Source: a virus
Taxonomy: Duplodnaviria > Heunggongvirae > Uroviricota > Caudoviricetes
IMG/VR virus record: IMGVR_UViG_2636415906_000004
Reading direction: 5' to 3' (one strand)
DNA: 14,821 nucleotides
Positions 1 through 14,821 of the stretch are shown piece by piece. The notes below the pieces were generated by a model that was given only the letters and a program-made list of their open reading frames with translations, was not told the DNA's origin and did no database searches. How positions within the stretch are numbered: position 1 is the stretch's first letter; the number at the start of each line of letters is the position of its first letter. Made by a program: the position numbers and the translations under genes.

Positions 1-852
1 GTGATTGCTTTACTACTGATTCCCATTCTTGTTAGCGGCTACATTTTAGTAGTCGCTAATTTATATCATTACTATCAATTGCATCGATACGATGGCCAAC
101 TTTTGTATATAAAAGTTGCAGCTCATGGAACAATGAGTGTTGTTTTTGTGATTTTAGCAGCAGTAGTAGTGAAATATTTCTTTCCTAATTTTCACCCAAT
201 AGGAATGCTTTCAGATATTCTTAATGTCAAGAAAATAATAAATGGTAATAAAGCTGAAACATGGCTTGCTTTGATTTCATTATCATCAATTATATTTTCT
301 TTAATTTGGGTGGCTTTAGTTTGGTTAAAAAATATGTTTTTTGGTTTCTTTTGTGAAAAGAAACATCATGAAAACATCTTTCATGCTAAGAAACTTAGAG
401 TATTAAGAAAAACAATTTCTAACTCAACTTTGGATAGTATGCTTTTAGATGCATTAGAAAGCAGTCCTAAAGAACCGATTCTAATAACCTTATCTTCACG
501 GAAAGTTTATGTTGGTATAGTTAATGGAATTCAAGAACCAACAGAAAGCGAAGCGCCAAATAGTTATATATCAATTTTCCCTATTATGTCAGGCTATAGA
601 GATAAAGATACTCTTTCCATCACCTTTACGAATTCATATCCATCAGAAGTACTAGTGAGTTCAGCTATTACAATGGACTCCCAAAAAAGGCATAAAGTGA
701 AAAATATGGATATAATATTTCGTGCTGATGAAATTTCTCATCTTTCATGGTTCGATTTTGAACTATTTGAACAAGTCAATGATTCGATGAAGCACGATAC
801 CATTGACTTGCGAAGTGAGACTTACTCAGGGGAAACTAGCGAAAATTTTTAG
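1..852 (+). CDS. hypothetical AT-rich membrane protein (3 predicted N-terminal TM helices, ~170-aa C-terminal soluble domain); 5' end may lie upstream of the window
   Basis: Frame is open from the window edge (first codon GTG) to TAG at 850-852. Hydrophobic segments IALLLIPILVSGYILVVANL, MSVVFVILAAVVV and WLALISLSSIIFSLIWVALVWL. About 30-38% GC in sampled lines. Converges on the int 3' end with a 17-nt overlap. No family recognised. Confidence 0.5.
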   Translation: MIALLLIPILVSGYILVVANLYHYYQLHRYDGQLLYIKVAAHGTMSVVFVILAAVVVKYFFPNFHPIGMLSDILNVKKIINGNKAETWLALISLSSIIFSLIWVALVWLKNMFFGFFCEKKHHENIFHAKKLRVLRKTISNSTLDSMLLDALESSPKEPILITLSSRKVYVGIVNGIQEPTESEAPNSYISIFPIMSGYRDKDTLSITFTNSYPSEVLVSSAITMDSQKRHKVKNMDIIFRADEISHLSWFDFELFEQVNDSMKHDTIDLRSETYSGETSENF

Positions 853-2044
853 TAATTTCAGGTTTCGCTAAAATTTCAGCATGAGGTACACACACCCAAT
901 CGATATGATTTTTAGTATAAATTTTTGTAGATTTGGCGTCGCTGTGTGCCATGCGGCCTTGCGGATCTATTCCCTGCTGATCGAAAAGGTGTGCCGCCAG
1001 CGCACGGATTTCGTGGAAGGTTGGTCTTTCTTCCATGGGTACATTGTCAAATAGTCTCAACCGATCACGAATTGCGGAAAACGATCTACTTAAATAATCT
1101 GGGGCAACTTGTGTCGGATGTGAAACCTCTTTGCTTCGTTTAACTTGGCGTTCTGGGATCCTGTGAACGACAAACGGACTTGCCACATTATCTCTGCTAT
1201 CGTCAATTATCCGTTTCAACTCTTCACCAATCGGTATTGCAACGTGTGATGCCTCTTTTTTTTGTACTTTCTGCCTATGGATATATAGTGTCCCATAAAT
1301 ACCGTTTTTTGGCTGTTCTAACCATACGCACCCGCAGATGCCGTCTTTAGGTTCGCGAATTGAGTAACGGATTCGCGATACTTCGAGTCGTGCATGTGTA
1401 GTTTGCAATGCTAGATCCATTGCTGTTCTTAACCATGGTGCAGCGGCCTGCCTGATAGCTATAAAATGCTCGAGTGACAGGCGCCGTCTTTTCTTCTCAT
1501 CAGTCCTACGCATTTTTTTTCTGATGGCCGGGTTATCCAGCATTAGTGATTCATCGACCGCATAAGAGAACAACTTTTTAAGAAAGCTGACCTTTCTGTT
1601 CTGCACATTTGCGGATGCGCTGGCATGATATTTGTTGATGTAGGTATTAACGTGTTCAAGTTCGATATCGCATGCCGGAACATTTACGAAAAACGCTTTT
1701 ACGCGTAGAGCGTCATTTTTCCAGTCATCTAAGGTACTCTGGGAAGGACGTTCGTCTTCGATAATCCGGGTCATTATGTGATCAACATGTTCAGCAAATG
1801 GTTTTGCTTCTCCGATAACACCGCCAGATTCTCTAATAAGATTTTCTACTGATGGAGATAATTCTGGTCTCATCCTCAGGTTGTACTCTCTGGCGATTGC
1901 AATAGCTATTGCCCTATCCTTACCTATATTTTTCTTCTTTCCGGTAATAAGTGTGAATTTATAAACACCTCGATCTTTATCAAAAATCAGATAATCAGGA
2001 AGATGTCTGTATTCTTTTTTACGTGGCCTTGCCGCCATGGTCAC
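836..2044 (-). CDS. int: tyrosine-type site-specific recombinase (phage integrase)
   Basis: 402-aa ORF; C-terminal catalytic region HEIRALAAHLF...RMAHSDAKSTKIYTKNH fits the R..H..R..Y integrase pattern. Immediately preceded by, and overlapping (GTGA), an excisionase-like gene. First codon is GTG; an ATG lies two codons in. Confidence 0.85.
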   Translation of the reverse strand: MTMAARPRKKEYRHLPDYLIFDKDRGVYKFTLITGKKKNIGKDRAIAIAIAREYNLRMRPELSPSVENLIRESGGVIGEAKPFAEHVDHIMTRIIEDERPSQSTLDDWKNDALRVKAFFVNVPACDIELEHVNTYINKYHASASANVQNRKVSFLKKLFSYAVDESLMLDNPAIRKKMRRTDEKKRRRLSLEHFIAIRQAAAPWLRTAMDLALQTTHARLEVSRIRYSIREPKDGICGCVWLEQPKNGIYGTLYIHRQKVQKKEASHVAIPIGEELKRIIDDSRDNVASPFVVHRIPERQVKRSKEVSHPTQVAPDYLSRSFSAIRDRLRLFDNVPMEERPTFHEIRALAAHLFDQQGIDPQGRMAHSDAKSTKIYTKNHIDWVCVPHAEILAKPEITKNFR

Positions 2045-2250
2045 CCCTCGTTTATTAACTTGCGAACAGCTTGACTAACCATTGAGTCGACTCCCCATTT
2101 TTCTGTTTCGCAGACAAAAACAGAACCGTCCACGATGCGTCCCATGAGTAGACCGTTCTCGACCCAACGTTTTATCGTTCGGTTGTCAGGAATTGAGCCA
2201 TTAGAGAATTCACGGCGTCCCCATTGGCTCGCTTTCATTAGTTTTGCCAT
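2041..2250 (-). CDS. xis: excisionase (Xis-like winged-helix DNA-binding protein)
   Basis: Small ORF directly upstream of int with 4-nt overlap. Segment NRTIKRWVENGLLMGRIVDGSVFV parallels lambda Xis SLETVRRWVRECRIFPPPVKDGREYLF as I recall it. Start taken at the ATG (MAKLMK...) with GGAG upstream; the track ORF extends to a TTG at 2295. Confidence 0.7.
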   Translation of the reverse strand: MAKLMKASQWGRREFSNGSIPDNRTIKRWVENGLLMGRIVDGSVFVCETEKWGVDSMVSQAVRKLINEG

Positions 2251-4978: not shown

Positions 4979-5298
4979 CAGGACTACACACAGCATAAAG
5001 TTGTGGTGCCGGGTGCCTCCCGGTGCCTGGCGAAGGTTGCACACCAGACGGGTGGGTATCCACAGAAGGTCGACTGTCAGCCTCAACCTTAACCCGCGTG
5101 CGCTGAGCCGCATTCACCACAACGCTAAGGATTCTCTCTGGTTGAAAATACTTAGCTGTTATGTGCCTGCTTTTAGCCACATCAGGCGAGGTGGACCTGG
5201 TTATTCCCCAACAACAAGGAGCGGTGCTTACGGAAAAGCAGCAAGCGCGCTGCATCGGGTGAAGAGTGGTATCTGTCAGGGAATTACGTGGGGGCTTA

Positions 5299-5679
5299 AT
5301 GAGTAATAAATATTGCCAGGCGCTGGTGGAACTGCGGAACAAACCAGCCCATGAACTGAAGGAAGTGGGCGATCAGTGGCGCACGCCGGATAACATTTTC
5401 TGGGGAATTAACACCCTGTTTGGCCCGTTTGTTCTGGATCTGTTCACTGACGGTGATAACGCCAAATGTGCTGCGTATTACACGGCGGAAGACAACGCGC
5501 TGGCGCATGACTGGTCAGAACGTCTTGCGGAGCTTGAAGGTGCTGCCTTTGGTAATCCCCCATACAGCCGCGCCAGTCAGCATGAGGGGCAATACATCAC
5601 CGGCATGCGTTACATCATGAAACATGCCAGTGCCATGCGTGATAAGGGTGAAGGAACTATGTCAGCATTGCCATGGTAA
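5299..5679 (+). CDS. phage N6-adenine DNA methyltransferase, N-terminal fragment (probable truncated pseudogene)
   Basis: NPPY catalytic motif (AFGNPPYSRASQ) typical of amino-methyltransferases. The ORF stops 24 codons after the motif while a different frame continues into the Q-like sequence. Confidence 0.55.
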   Translation: MSNKYCQALVELRNKPAHELKEVGDQWRTPDNIFWGINTLFGPFVLDLFTDGDNAKCAAYYTAEDNALAHDWSERLAELEGAAFGNPPYSRASQHEGQYITGMRYIMKHASAMRDKGEGTMSALPW

Positions 5680-5971
5680 GGGAGAAGTCAGCACCGCGTG
5701 CAGAGGGTGTAAGGGTAAAGGTATTGTCCTGGATGAAAAAAGAACCCGGCTTCATGGCACGCCTGTTTATAAGATTTGTGGGCGTTGCAGTGGAAACCGG
5801 TTTAGCCGTTTACCAACCACACTGGCGCGGCTTCATGTCCAGAAGCTGGTACCAGACCTGACGGATTATCAGTGGTACAAAGGATATGCAGATGTCATTG
5901 ATAAACTGGTTACAAAGTGCTGGCAGGAGGAAGCTTACGCTGAAGCACAATTGAGAAGGGTGACGAGATAA
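5624..5971 (+). CDS. lambda-type Q antiterminator, C-terminal zinc-binding half only (N-terminally truncated, probable pseudogene)
   Basis: CQHCHGKG...CRGCKGKG...ICGRCSGNRFSRLP...LVPDLTD...KCWQEE...VTR aligns in pattern with the lambda Q C-terminus (CRDCHGTG...ECGRCKGVGYSRMP...LIPNLTQ...QCHKEE...AVTR) as I recall it. The ~100 N-terminal residues are absent. Confidence 0.6.
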   Translation: MPVPCVIRVKELCQHCHGKGEVSTACRGCKGKGIVLDEKRTRLHGTPVYKICGRCSGNRFSRLPTTLARLHVQKLVPDLTDYQWYKGYADVIDKLVTKCWQEEAYAEAQLRRVTR

Positions 5972-6003
5972 GCGATTTTCGCCGAAGATAACGACATAAT
6001 ACT

Positions 6004-6032
6004 TGTATTTCTCAAAAAATATGGATAAGATT
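6004..6032 (+). promoter_or_regulatory. candidate pR'-like sigma70 promoter (TTGTAT - 17 nt - TAAGAT) just downstream of Q
   Basis: Hexamers and spacing seen by eye. Position relative to Q and to the downstream terminator matches the lambdoid pR'/tR' layout. Confidence 0.25.
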
Positions 6033-6079
6033 TTCTCAACGATGGGGCTTGTGTATCTATCGTTGAACAATTTTTACGA

Positions 6080-6103
6080 CCTCGCTATTGCGAGGTTTTT
6101 TTA
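6080..6103 (+). terminator. rho-independent terminator (cctcgc-tatt-gcgagg followed by a T-run), tR'-like
   Basis: 6-bp perfect GC-rich stem, 4-nt loop, then a T-run of about 8, read directly from the sequence. Confidence 0.6.
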
Positions 6104-6139
6104 TGGTTTTTTTCTATTCAATCTACATCAAAATCAATG

Positions 6140-6148
6140 TGTTATAAT
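6140..6148 (+). promoter_or_regulatory. extended -10 promoter element TGtTATAAT upstream of the moron genes
   Basis: Perfect TGnTATAAT located 38 nt upstream of the ATG at 6186. Confidence 0.45.
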
Positions 6149-6185
6149 GTTTTCTGTAAAACAACATTAAAAACAGGAGAACATT

Positions 6186-6455
6186 ATGAAACTGACCTCT
6201 ATCCATCTTGAAATACTACGTCGAGTGAATGAATTGCAGCCAAAGGATTCTAGAATTCAGGCTGCATCATTACCTCATCTCTCAGCAAAAGAGGTTAACT
6301 TTGCTATTTCAGATCTTGCTGATATAGGTTTTATCGATGTTATACGAAGCAAATCTGCCGAAGGTGGATTGATTGCTAATGAGATAACGTCAAAAGGTTT
6401 TGCTTTTTTGAGTGAGATTGGCGCTGAAAAAAATTCATCGATGAGCACTCATTGA
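6186..6455 (+). CDS. hypothetical small protein (89 aa), first gene of the AT-rich moron
   Basis: ATG preceded by AGGAG at 8-nt spacing. AT-rich. No TM segment. No family recognised; a winged-helix fold is only a guess. Confidence 0.6.
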   Translation: MKLTSIHLEILRRVNELQPKDSRIQAASLPHLSAKEVNFAISDLADIGFIDVIRSKSAEGGLIANEITSKGFAFLSEIGAEKNSSMSTH

Positions 6456-6469
6456 TTTCTGCTTCAATC

Positions 6470-6487
6470 GGCTGCCAATTGGCAGCC
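6470..6487. repeat. 18-bp perfect palindrome ggctgcc-aatt-ggcagcc after the 89-aa gene (hairpin or dimer-binding site)
   Basis: Exact palindrome 15 nt after the stop codon. No U-tract follows. Near-identical to the hairpin at 7493-7510. Confidence 0.45.
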
Positions 6488-6520
6488 TAAACTGTAAAGT
6501 GAATTTAAAATCGCCTACAA

Positions 6521-6548
6521 TTGATGCTTAAATTTTGTTCTGTATCAT
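6521..6548 (+). promoter_or_regulatory. candidate sigma70 promoter (TTGATG - 16 nt - TATCAT) for the 268-aa gene
   Basis: Hexamers read by eye in the 165-bp AT-rich spacer between the two moron genes. Confidence 0.3.
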
Positions 6549-6652
6549 CTGCAGGTTTAGGGATATCACAGTAGCTTTCTGACAAGAAGAGTTCTTTTCT
6601 TCTACCAATGAAGTGGTTATGTTAACCTGCGCTAAATCGAGACTGGTGCGGA

Positions 6653-7459
6653 GTGGAATCGAAAGTGTCATATTTTTACAGAAGCAAGAATATTTCAGGT
6701 GTTTCTATAAATGAAGATAGCTTGATTAGCTTAAGCACGGCAATTGTCGAACGCTGCGTTAAAATGAATGAGCAAGCTCAAAAGGAAAGTAGGGAAGTTT
6801 GTGCTCAATGTGTTTTTTTTATTTTGTTCGATGGTAAGGGGTATAAAGTTGATTCTATCGGTGAGCTTGTGAAATACTTTAGACAGGCCACTAGGATTGA
6901 TCAAATAAATTTTACTATTGAAACTTATCAAAGTCGACAGTCTAACAGGATGAATGGATCTTGGATGGAGCTACGAATTGATGAGAGGAATTCAAATAGC
7001 AGCACAATGATTGTAGCATCGGAAGATAATGAGTGGGTTGACTCGTTATGGATTACGATTCAGGATTTACTTAACAAGTGCAAAAATAAATTTAGATTTT
7101 TTAGAACAGCTTGGACTATGTTAAGTATCCAGATTTCAGGTGTGACAGTTGGCTTTTTGCTTAGCTTATGGACAGCCTCAAAACTGGCGCCAAAACTATC
7201 AATCGATGGTGCATTTGCTTTATCATTTATTTGTATCTTTATTTTGTTTTCGAACTTATGGAGCTTTGCTATTCCATTAATAATTAAGCTTATCGACTTT
7301 TTGTTTCCTAGTGTTAAGTTTGTTATTAATGGTAAAAATTACTTTCACTGGAGTGTCCAGGCTATAATTGGAGCGATTGCCAGTGCGGTTATATTGTATT
7401 TTATTAGCTCCATGTTGCTTTTTGCATTAGAAATGTTAAATAGCATCATTAAGAAATAG
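6653..7459 (+). CDS. hypothetical membrane protein (268 aa): ~150-aa N-terminal soluble domain plus 3 C-terminal TM helices; second gene of the AT-rich moron
   Basis: Hydrophobic segments TMLSIQISGVTVGFLLSLWTA, GAFALSFICIFILFSNLWSFAIPLII and AIIGAIASAVILYFISSMLLFALEML. About 25% GC in sampled lines. Start is GTG at 6653 with poor SD spacing, so the true start is uncertain. No family recognised. Confidence 0.6.
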   Translation: MESKVSYFYRSKNISGVSINEDSLISLSTAIVERCVKMNEQAQKESREVCAQCVFFILFDGKGYKVDSIGELVKYFRQATRIDQINFTIETYQSRQSNRMNGSWMELRIDERNSNSSTMIVASEDNEWVDSLWITIQDLLNKCKNKFRFFRTAWTMLSIQISGVTVGFLLSLWTASKLAPKLSIDGAFALSFICIFILFSNLWSFAIPLIIKLIDFLFPSVKFVINGKNYFHWSVQAIIGAIASAVILYFISSMLLFALEMLNSIIKK

Positions 7460-7492
7460 TTAATGAATTAGTTATAATTACATCAATTCTAT

Positions 7493-14498: not shown

Positions 14499-14821
14499 TT
14501 TTTTGCCCGTCCATATTCAACGGCTTCTTTGAGGAGTTCATTTTCCATCGTTTTCTTGCCGAGCAGGCGCTGGAGTTCTTTAATCTGCTTCATGGCGGCA
14601 GCAAGTTCAGAGGCAGGAACAACCTGTTCTCCGGCGGCGACAGCAGTAAGACTTCCTTCCTGGTATTGCTTACGCCAGAGAAATAACTGGCTGGCTGCTA
14701 CACCATGTTGCCGGGCAACGAGGGAGACCGTCATCCCCGGTTCAAAGCTCTGCTGAACAATTGCGATCTTTTCCTGTGTGGTACGCCGTCTGCGTTTCTC
14801 CGGCCCTAAGACATCAATCAT
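14456..14821 (-). CDS. insC: IS2 OrfA (InsC) transposition regulator
   Basis: [26 protein letters not shown]... recognised as IS2 InsC. Start codon is at the last nt of the window. Confidence 0.9.
14498..14504 (-). other. A6G slippery heptamer (AAAAAAG on minus strand) for the IS2 insC-insD -1 programmed frameshift
   Basis: cttttttt run on the plus strand inside the insC/insD overlap. Confidence 0.5.

What the first reader, a model, noticed from the sequence alone, without database searches (positions are those of the whole stretch)
1..852. AT-rich 3-TM protein gene converging on and overlapping the integrase 3' end
The int-proximal prophage end is a recurrent cargo site; e14 carries lit and ymfE next to its int. 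This 283-aa ORF has three N-terminal TM helices and an unrecognised ~170-aa cytoplasmic domain. It is strongly AT-rich and its stop codon lies 17 nt inside the int coding region on the opposite strand. Its N-terminus may extend beyond the window, and partner genes may lie upstream.
Basis: partly seen in the sequence, partly recalled or inferred. Interest (0 to 1): 0.5.

Follow-up and report, generated by a model that had tools for sequence, protein, structure and literature searches.

The report
Prophage cargo: membrane-anchored Sm-barrel gene pair
The AT-rich gene next to the integrase is a real, intact prophage cargo gene, the second half of a widespread but uncharacterised two-gene module (a small soluble protein plus a three-helix membrane protein with an Sm/Hfq-like barrel) that sits in known anti-phage hot spots of phages and satellites, so it is a good but untested candidate for a new phage-exclusion system.

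Summary
Window 1-852 (+) encodes a 283-aa protein at 32% GC, with three N-terminal hydrophobic helices, and it overlaps the converging integrase by 17 nt. The N-terminus does not run off the window. GTG at base 1 is the start, and a 66-aa partner gene ends 4 nt upstream.

The pair lies inside a decayed ~16-kb CPS-53-like prophage at proL, in a sharply bounded cargo slot (window -314 to ~871). Sister prophages carry at least three other gene sets there.

The small partner is directly upstream in 42 of 52 intact loci from other species. Copies sit in:
- the int-attP slot of Cronobacter phage phiES15
- the P2 gpA-gpQ defence hot spot, beside IetAS
- AlpA/integrase islands and lambdoid moron sites

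A Pseudomonas clade, however, carries the pair as a stable chromosomal locus.

Best reading: a mobile membrane phage-exclusion or abortive-infection module. The function is inferred, not shown.

The parts
1..852 (+). Gene B: a 283-aa inner-membrane protein (WP_000561018.1). It has 3 TM helices (about 2-20, 38-60 and 87-116), a cytoplasmic helical linker (about 120-155), an Sm-like beta-barrel (about 143-220 with an extension to about 260), and a non-conserved acidic tail.
836..852 (.). 17-nt tail-to-tail overlap of gene B and int. It contains both stop codons.
   Evidence: The last ~10 residues of this Int (KPEITKNFR) are absent from the Int proteins of strains VE-V11-M and the Klebsiella prophage, which end ...VPHGEIKT-G and ...KAI-N.
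853..871 (.). Right edge of the exchangeable cargo slot. Homology to sister prophages resumes at window 869-873, inside the int 3' end.
   Evidence: blastn breakpoints at 872, 869 and 873 in three independent strains.
836..2044 (-). Lambda-type tyrosine integrase with an Arm-DNA-binding N-terminus. RefSeq places the start at 2038.
   Evidence: Pfam Arm-DNA-bind_1 at E 5.8e-6, plus weaker Phage_integrase hits. RefSeq annotation.
2041..2250 (-). 69-aa gene immediately upstream of int, in the position an excisionase would occupy. It is conserved in all sister prophages. No family hit.
   Evidence: Annotation. No Pfam or PADLOC hit.

Best explanation
Window 1-852 is the distal gene (B) of an intact, translationally coupled two-gene operon. 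The proximal gene (A, 66 aa, soluble) lies just outside the window at -204..-4.

The operon fills the exchangeable cargo slot between attL and int of a decayed CPS-53-like prophage. attL is the duplicated 3' half of tRNA-Pro proL.

B is predicted to insert in the inner membrane with three helices, N-terminus out and C-terminus in. It presents a cytoplasmic Sm/LSm-like beta-barrel. A is predicted to form a beta-hairpin with an invariant R-G, followed by a long helix.

Most likely function (inferred, not shown): a lysogen-expressed phage-exclusion or abortive-infection module.
- B assembles through its Sm-like domain into a ring-shaped oligomer in the membrane.
- The barrel, whose invariant residues lie on the loop 3 / loop 5 face that binds ligand in Sm and WYL proteins, senses an infection cue. 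The cue could be a nucleic acid, a nucleotide or a phage protein.
- The transmembrane part then permeabilises the membrane or blocks genome entry.
- A acts as the stoichiometric regulator or co-sensor.

Approximate probabilities: cargo gene inside the prophage 0.95; anti-phage or inter-element competition role 0.5; the specific ring-pore-with-sensor mechanism 0.2.
For: Shown:
- Location. Intact proL lies at the yejM end, and a 54-nt repeat of its 3' half lies at the yejO end. The gene pair and int are inside these limits, and K-12 lacks the element.
- Sharp slot boundaries at window -315 and 869-873. At least four different cargo sets occur behind the same int in 108 E. coli genomes: this pair; two hypotheticals plus DUF2971; two other hypotheticals; DUF4760.
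- Operon structure. A has a strong GAGGAGG ribosome-binding site, and its stop is 4 nt before B's GTG. An A homologue lies directly upstream of B (gap -1 to +54 nt) in 42 of 52 intact loci from 62 species genomes. Ten source records show adjacent locus tags.
- Context in known anti-phage hot spots:
  - between gpA and the portal gene of P2-like prophages, next to IetA/IetS (PADLOC E 1e-130 and 7e-273). This is the locus Rousset et al. define as the P2 defence hot spot (PMC9122126).
  - the right end of P2-like Salmonella phage SEN5.
  - the int-attP slot of inducible Cronobacter phage phiES15.
  - AlpA/integrase islands.
  - a Vibrio cholerae integrative element.
  - the replication-lysis moron site of a Photobacterium prophage.
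  - a moron site of an E. coli phage.
- Other neighbours include type III CBASS, AbiEi, DndH and MADS genes.
- In this remnant most phage genes are truncated or frameshifted, yet the pair and a full-length GmrSD type IV restriction enzyme at the other end are intact.
Against: - No experiment, paper or database links either protein to defence. PADLOC 2.0.0, Pfam and NCBIfam give no hit, PHROGs lists both as unknown function, and literature searches found nothing.
- At least 13 species-level genomes of the Pseudomonas oryzihabitans / luteola / duriflava group carry the pair at one syntenic chromosomal locus. The neighbours are MCP, MFS, GNAT and ABC genes, with no mobile-element marker. This looks like vertical inheritance rather than defence-type turnover.
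- Among 27 representative loci, many distant members have only housekeeping neighbours within 6 kb. The defence-neighbour counts have no background control.
- Oligomerisation, ligand binding, the A-B interaction and topology are all inferred.
- The A model is of modest confidence and has no structural match.
Confidence: 0.5

Rival explanations
1. The pair has a physiological membrane function unrelated to phage. It could be a small channel or an envelope-stress device built like MscS (three TM helices plus a cytoplasmic Sm-like ring). Prophages would carry it as a host-fitness (lysogenic conversion) factor.
For: B has the same length, the same predicted topology and the same class of cytoplasmic barrel as MscS (architecture recalled from established knowledge of MscS; Sm fold). 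The chromosomal locus is stable and syntenic across a Pseudomonas clade. Many distant members have housekeeping neighbours.
Confidence: 0.22
2. The pair is an addiction (toxin-antitoxin-like) module. B would be a membrane toxin and the upstream small protein A its labile antidote. Loss of the element would kill the cell, so the pair stabilises the element rather than defending against phage.
For: The pair has the small-upstream / larger-downstream coupled gene order typical of type II TA pairs. It survives intact in a heavily decayed prophage. It recurs on many mobile elements.
Confidence: 0.13
3. The pair is a non-lethal superinfection-exclusion device, analogous to P22 SieA, HK97 gp15 or T4 Imm. 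It would sit in the inner membrane and block DNA entry by related phages without killing the cell.
For: B is an inner-membrane protein expressed from the lysogenic-conversion slot next to att and int. It is carried by functional temperate phages.
Against: Known Sie proteins (recalled from the literature) are small and lack a conserved cytoplasmic sensor-like domain and a soluble partner. PHROGs gives no Sie annotation. The module also occurs in satellites, ICE-like elements and chromosomes, where exclusion of one phage type is a less obvious benefit.
Confidence: 0.15
4. The ORF is a conserved host gene flanking the attachment site, or a chance ORF.
For: None found.
Against: The ORF is absent from K-12 at the proL locus. 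It lies inside the att repeats. It is present in only 23 of 5,426 complete E. coli genomes. It is replaced by other genes in sister prophages. It belongs to a large conserved family.
Confidence: 0.01

Closest known systems
Accessory exclusion genes in prophage cargo slots: e14 ymfD-ymfE-lit beside intE, P2 old/tin between gpA and gpQ, and gtrABC beside int/attP in P22- and CPS-53-type phages (recalled; P2 locus confirmed in PMC9122126)
   Same: The position and logic match. This is a short, AT-rich, self-contained unit in an exchangeable slot bounded by conserved phage sequence. Homologues of the pair occupy exactly the P2 gpA-gpQ hot spot and the int-attP slot.
   Different: There is no sequence or fold relationship to Lit, Old, Tin or Gtr proteins. 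The function of this pair is untested.
Sm / LSm / Hfq proteins
   Different: No LSM or Hfq Pfam hit. The domain is tethered to three TM helices and has a beta extension (228-250) and an acidic tail. RNA binding and ring formation are untested.
WYL-domain sensors of defence systems (BrxR, CapW, DriD, PafBC)
   Different: No WYL Pfam hit and no HTH or WCX domains. Here the barrel is fused to a membrane anchor rather than to a transcription factor.
MscS mechanosensitive channel
   Same: About 285 aa, three N-terminal TM helices with an N-out/C-in topology, and a cytoplasmic Sm-like beta domain that forms a ring in the heptamer (architecture recalled from established structural work).
TM-plus-small-barrel abortive-infection effectors (CBASS Cap15 / S-2TM-beta) and two-protein membrane Abi systems (RexAB)
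   Same: The concept is shared: a membrane anchor joined to a compact cytoplasmic beta-barrel that could sense a ligand and trigger membrane damage, or a two-gene sensor-plus-membrane-protein pair carried by a prophage.
   Different: No PADLOC hit to any such family. No cyclase is consistently linked. The partner is a 60-90-aa protein of unknown fold.

Membership tests
Prophage-internal cargo (moron) rather than a host gene | Lies between the att repeat and the phage core genes, and is absent from the empty site | tested here: met
   A 54-nt proL 3'-half repeat flanks the element. K-12 has the empty site. The pair lies between the repeat and int.
Prophage-internal cargo (moron) rather than a host gene | The slot holds different genes in otherwise homologous prophages, with fixed breakpoints | tested here: met
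   Breakpoints lie at window -315 and 869-873 in three other strains, and four cargo sets were seen.
Known anti-phage defence system | Sequence match to a curated model of a known or candidate system | tested here: not met
   PADLOC-DB 2.0.0 gives 0 families for A and for B at E <= 1.
Known anti-phage defence system | Recurrent location in defence hot spots or islands | tested here: inconclusive
   Positive in the P2 gpA-gpQ hot spot beside IetAS, in int-att slots, and near CBASS, AbiE and Dnd genes. However, a Pseudomonas clade has a syntenic chromosomal locus, many distant members have housekeeping neighbours, and there is no background control.
Known anti-phage defence system | Measured protection against phage | not testable with these tools
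   Needs plaque assays.
Sm/LSm/Hfq superfamily | Sm fold (N-terminal helix plus five strongly bent strands) | tested here: met
Sm/LSm/Hfq superfamily | Sequence-profile membership (Pfam LSM, Hfq) | tested here: not met
   No hit at E <= 1. The PDB sequence-profile search also found none.
Sm/LSm/Hfq superfamily | Ring oligomer that binds RNA | not testable with these tools
   No multimer prediction or binding assay is available.
MscS family | MS_channel profile match and a TM3-beta-alpha/beta cytoplasmic cage | tested here: not met
WYL domain | WYL profile match | tested here: not met
Type II toxin-antitoxin pair | The small partner has a recognisable antitoxin or DNA-binding fold | tested here: not met
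phrog_3630 / phrog_5739 (phage protein families of unknown function) | Full-length profile match | tested here: met
   B matches phrog_3630 at E 6.9e-75 over 1-271 of the protein and 1-260 of 274 profile positions. A matches phrog_5739 at E 2e-8.

The most novel reading that the evidence does not exclude
The A+B pair is a previously undescribed, widespread anti-phage system. A ring of membrane-anchored Sm-like barrels would sense an infection-specific nucleic acid or nucleotide in the cytoplasm and gate its own transmembrane helices as a pore, under control of the small partner. That would make it the first immune effector built on an Sm/Hfq-type ring.
Probability: 0.3. Interest if true: 0.7.

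Novelty: new variant of a known kind. Interest (0 to 1): 0.5.

Why it matters
If the pair protects against phage, it would add a compact (~1.1 kb) system to the defence catalogue. Its family spans Gamma-, Beta- and Alphaproteobacteria and beyond, and current annotation tools give it no name. It would also show an Sm/Hfq-type barrel used as a membrane-tethered sensor or effector.

The work defines a precisely bounded att-int cargo slot in CPS-53-like prophages at proL. That slot could be mined for further systems, in the same way as the P2 and P4 hot spots.

If the module is instead a physiological membrane device, as the Pseudomonas synteny hints, it is still a large unnamed protein family that deserves a model in Pfam.

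Tried and rejected
- Pfam gave only a sub-threshold FPL hit for B (E 0.0033, 17.9 bits against a cut-off of 26.1). I treat it as chance.
- NCBIfam and PADLOC gave nothing for A or B.
- A PDB sequence-profile search with the family alignment gave only noise (best E 0.035, a designed coiled coil).
- A Foldseek search of the B model against viral structures (BFVD) gave only low-TM matches to uncharacterised proteins.
- The afdb50 library was not available.
- Literature searches by accession, locus tag and PHROG id, and by Sm-like / transmembrane / anti-phage terms, found no description of the family. The supplements of Rousset et al. confirm AAA + Peptidase_S8 as an ietAS-like hot-spot system but do not contain the accession of this window's protein; I did not search them for the homologues that occupy the P2 hot spot.
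- ARAGORN does not call the 78-nt 'tRNA-Pro' that RefSeq annotates beside the pair. It is the att duplicate of the proL 3' half joined to phage DNA.
- The promoter and terminator scan gave one good -35/-10 match in the conserved arm (window -394..-367). The total number of matches is not above the shuffle expectation, and no terminator follows B.
- I first assumed the window came from strain APEC O78. It is identical to that strain only for the first ~2.9 kb. The exact source is GZM7-type poultry strains, which have the same upstream genes.

Full report
**What is in the sequence**

Window 1-852 (+) is an uninterrupted 283-codon ORF that starts with GTG at base 1 and ends with TAG at 850-852. 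Its GC content is 0.322, against 0.428 for the integrase gene and 0.448 for the window.

A hydropathy scan gives three hydrophobic segments, about 1-23, 34-65 and 86-118. They are followed by a K/R-rich stretch (EKKHHENIFHAKKLRVLRK). By the positive-inside rule this puts the C-terminal ~165 residues in the cytoplasm and the N-terminus outside (inference).

The integrase runs on the opposite strand from 2038/2044 to its stop at 836-838, so the two reading frames overlap by 17 nt.

**Source and surroundings**

The window is 100% identical to several poultry-associated E. coli chromosomes, for example GZM7 (NZ_CP129279.1, 1642375-1657195). APEC O78 is identical for the first ~2.9 kb only.

In all of these strains the gene order is narP - yejO autotransporter - a 78-nt feature annotated tRNA-Pro - a 66-aa ORF (WP_000002741.1) - the 283-aa ORF (WP_000561018.1) - int. 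A ~14-kb remnant of a CPS-53-like prophage follows. It carries:
- yfdP, yfdQ and yfdR
- truncated PerC, methyltransferase and Q genes
- two holins and a GH19 endolysin
- tail-fibre fragments and a pin-like recombinase fragment
- a DUF262 gene, IS2 and a DinI pseudogene

After that come an intact proL and yejM.

K-12 has lapC(yejM)-proL-yejO with nothing in between.

Aligning the two ends shows a 54-nt direct repeat. It is the 3' half of proL from the anticodon loop (CATGGGG...) to a few bases past CCA. On the yejO side this repeat is joined to non-tRNA DNA. That is why ARAGORN does not call a tRNA there.

The gene pair is therefore inside the element, between attL and int.

**The slot**

Of 5,426 complete E. 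coli genomes, 108 carry this integrase at >= 84% nucleotide identity, but only 23 carry the 283-aa gene.

In three other strains homology to the window stops at -315/-316, after a conserved ~130-bp arm next to the att repeat, and resumes at 869-873 inside the int 3' end. Between these fixed breakpoints the cargo differs:
- two hypotheticals, a recombinase fragment and a DUF2971 protein (strains VE-V11-M and FORC_042; FORC_042 was compared by annotation only, not by blastn breakpoints)
- two other hypotheticals (strain 100181)
- a DUF4760 protein (strain 23CRST046)

The right breakpoint lies inside int. As a result, the last ~10 residues of this Int (KPEITKNFR) are not conserved. Sister integrases end ...VPHGEIKT-G or ...KAI-N. 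The 17-nt overlap is thus a by-product of where the cassette was joined, not evidence of regulatory coupling (inference).

**The gene is half of a two-gene module**

The 66-aa ORF (A) has a GAGGAGG ribosome-binding site, and its stop lies 4 nt before the GTG of the 283-aa ORF (B). So the N-terminus of B does not extend beyond the window. Homologues start at the same residue, and the phrog_3630 profile is matched from position 1.

A-type proteins share a core [VI]-x-V-x-G-R-G-x-x-x-I ... E-V-x-x-M-x-x-x-A-x-x-I-V.

I examined 62 loci retrieved from one-genome-per-species collections.
- 52 have an intact B.
- 42 of those have an HMM-detectable A directly upstream on the same strand, with gaps of -1 to +54 nt.
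- The misses are the most divergent members.

Adjacent locus tags in ten source records say the same.

The B family is large. The exhaustive profile search found 2,641 clusters at 50% identity with E <= 1e-3, almost all of them 240-340 aa and matched end to end. Hosts span:
- Enterobacterales, Vibrio, Pseudomonas, Shewanella, Halomonas, Legionella and Alcanivorax
- Lautropia and Brachymonas
- Novosphingobium and Asticcacaulis
- Turneriella, Acidobacteria and Polyangiales

**What the proteins look like**

Neither protein matches Pfam, NCBIfam or PADLOC. PHROGs files them under phrog_3630 and phrog_5739, both of unknown function.

The invariant residues of the family fall in two groups:
- the first cytoplasmic loop (LHRYDGQLLYxK)
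- strand 2, loop 3, the end of strand 3, and loops 4 and 5 of the barrel (K168, Y170, G172, P180, E182, S197, G198, R200, N211, Y213)

The second group lies on the face that binds ligand in Sm rings. That placement is an inference from secondary-structure position.

The model of A is a hairpin carrying the invariant R-G, followed by a long helix. It has no significant structural neighbour, so my AbrB-antitoxin idea is rejected.

**Where the module lives**

In Enterobacterales and Vibrionaceae every context examined is a mobile element, and usually an accessory position of it:
- the int-attP slot of the inducible Cronobacter phage phiES15
- the int-proximal end of Klebsiella prophages
- the right end of P2-like Salmonella phage SEN5, after gene A and a methyltransferase
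- between gpA and the portal gene of P2-like Enterobacter prophages
- AlpA/integrase islands in Salmonella/Citrobacter and Serratia
- a V. cholerae integrative element with TraN
- between the replication and lysis genes of a Photobacterium lambdoid prophage
- a moron site of an E. coli phage

The gpA-gpQ interval is the P2 hot spot of anti-phage systems defined by Rousset et al. (PMC9122126). In it the module sits next to an AAA + S8-peptidase pair. PADLOC identifies that pair as IetA/IetS (E 1e-130 and 7e-273), and those authors list it as ietAS-like.

Across 27 dereplicated loci, neighbours within 6 kb also include type III CBASS (cyclase, HORMA, TRIP13, NucC), AbiEi, DndH and MADS components.

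In the window's own remnant, the pair at one end and a full-length GmrSD type IV restriction enzyme at the other (window 11525-13414; PADLOC mREase_IV, 1-629 of 629) are intact, while most phage genes are broken.

**Evidence that cuts the other way**

At least 13 species-level genomes of the Pseudomonas oryzihabitans / luteola / duriflava / asuensis group carry the pair at one syntenic chromosomal position. Nucleotide identity over the module and both flanks is 70-92%. The neighbours are an MCP, an MFS transporter, a GNAT and an ABC ATPase, with no mobile-element marker.

Many distant loci also have ordinary metabolic neighbours.

My neighbour counts have no background control, and my ORF calls in GC-rich genomes are crude. 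So the family is not exclusively mobile cargo, and a general membrane function cannot be excluded.

**Mechanism**

Shown:
- a two-gene, tightly coupled operon
- a three-helix membrane anchor
- an Sm-like cytoplasmic barrel with a conserved loop face
- mobility among phage and satellite hot spots

Inferred:
- Sm-like domains usually form hexameric or heptameric rings. B would then form a ring-shaped membrane oligomer of 18-21 helices, an arrangement reminiscent of MscS.
- The barrel would act as a sensor, as WYL domains do next to BREX and CBASS.
- A would be a stoichiometric regulator.

I consider a phage-exclusion or abortive-infection role the most likely (about 0.5). The rivals are a physiological channel or stress function (0.22), non-lethal superinfection exclusion (0.15) and an addiction module (0.13). 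The host-gene and chance-ORF reading is refuted.

**Comparison with known systems**

By position the pair is equivalent to e14 lit/ymfE, P2 old/tin and the gtr operons of P22- and CPS-53-type phages.

By fold the C-terminal domain belongs with Sm/LSm/Hfq and WYL, but it fails every sequence-profile test for those families. By architecture it resembles MscS and TM-plus-barrel effectors such as Cap15, and again it fails their profile tests.

I therefore do not file it in any named family other than the unnamed PHROGs.

**Verdict**

What is new is the recognition of a conserved two-gene module and the Sm-like fold of its membrane protein. Also new are the size of the family and the precise boundaries of the att-int slot.

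Function remains inferred. Interest is moderate (0.5): this is a credible new defence candidate among many such candidates, with an unusual fold combination.

Noticed in passing
window 11525-13414 (-): A full-length GmrSD-type type IV (modification-dependent) restriction enzyme, annotated only as 'DUF262 domain-containing protein'. PADLOC mREase_IV matches 1-629 of 629 at E 0, and Pfam gives GmrSD_N plus GmrSD_C. It sits at the att-distal end of the remnant, between a pin-like recombinase fragment (11301-11423) and IS2 (13593-14821). The decayed prophage therefore keeps a bona fide defence gene at one end and the candidate pair at the other.
   Followed up: partly
outside the window, -500..-415 (L001 11500-11585; L101 3000-3085): RefSeq annotates a 78-nt 'tRNA-Pro' here, but ARAGORN finds no tRNA. 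It is the att duplicate of the proL 3' half (54 nt) fused to prophage DNA. The acceptor-side sequence of that DNA (CGGCGCG...) can still pair with the 3' acceptor strand. This is probably a pseudo-tRNA annotation artefact. The intact proL lies at the other end of the element.
   Followed up: yes
outside the window, -446..-315 (L001 11554-11685): A ~130-bp arm between the att repeat and the cargo slot is conserved (83-98%) in sister prophages that carry different cargo. It contains the best sigma-70-like match of the region (TTTACT-16-TATAAT at -394..-367), pointing into the slot. It could hold Int arm sites and/or a promoter that drives whatever cargo is inserted. The promoter count is not above the shuffle expectation.
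   Followed up: partly
window 5800-7600, ORFs 6186-6455 (+) and 6665-7459 (+): A second AT-rich block (GC 0.34-0.38) lies upstream of the holin genes. It holds an 89-aa ORF (weak DUF2513 hit) and a 264-aa ORF with no Pfam or PADLOC hit. In APEC O78 the larger ORF is annotated differently (495 nt). This may be another moron in the Q-to-lysis position.
   Followed up: partly
window 5204-5971: Three abutting gene fragments (PerC-family C-terminus, N6-adenine methyltransferase N-terminus, antiterminator Q C-terminus) mark large internal deletions. The whole replication, structural and immunity region of the prophage is missing, while two holins and a GH19 endolysin (7568-8836) remain intact.
   Followed up: no
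L043, L044, L046, L050, L052-L055, L057, L058, L072, L074, L075, L080 (match at about 7770-8730 in each): In the Pseudomonas oryzihabitans / luteola / duriflava / asuensis group the two-gene module is syntenic across at least 13 species-level genomes, next to chromosomal genes (MCP, MFS, GNAT, ABC ATPase). A variable segment lies a few kb upstream. This is unusual for a defence candidate and worth a dedicated look.
   Followed up: partly
L028, L030, L038-L040, L059, L062, L068: The copies in insect endosymbionts (Arsenophonus, Sodalis, Phlomobacter) are mostly broken into 2-3 ORF fragments, while the small partner often remains intact. This is consistent with decay of the module in reduced genomes.
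   Followed up: no
L007-L010 and L093-L097 (about 5779-10263): The module and the convergent IetA/IetS pair are found together as one ~4.5-kb block. The block occurs both in P2-like prophages (gpA-gpQ hot spot) and in an AlpA/integrase island, which suggests the two systems travel together.
   Followed up: partly
L014 905-2819; L088/L089 9388-12802: Klebsiella prophages that carry the module abut further integrase-bounded islets. These hold conflict-system domains (CTD1, MComp1, SMC_N; DUF4365-TPR and S_4TM), so the same tRNA-proximal site accumulates several elements in tandem.
   Followed up: no
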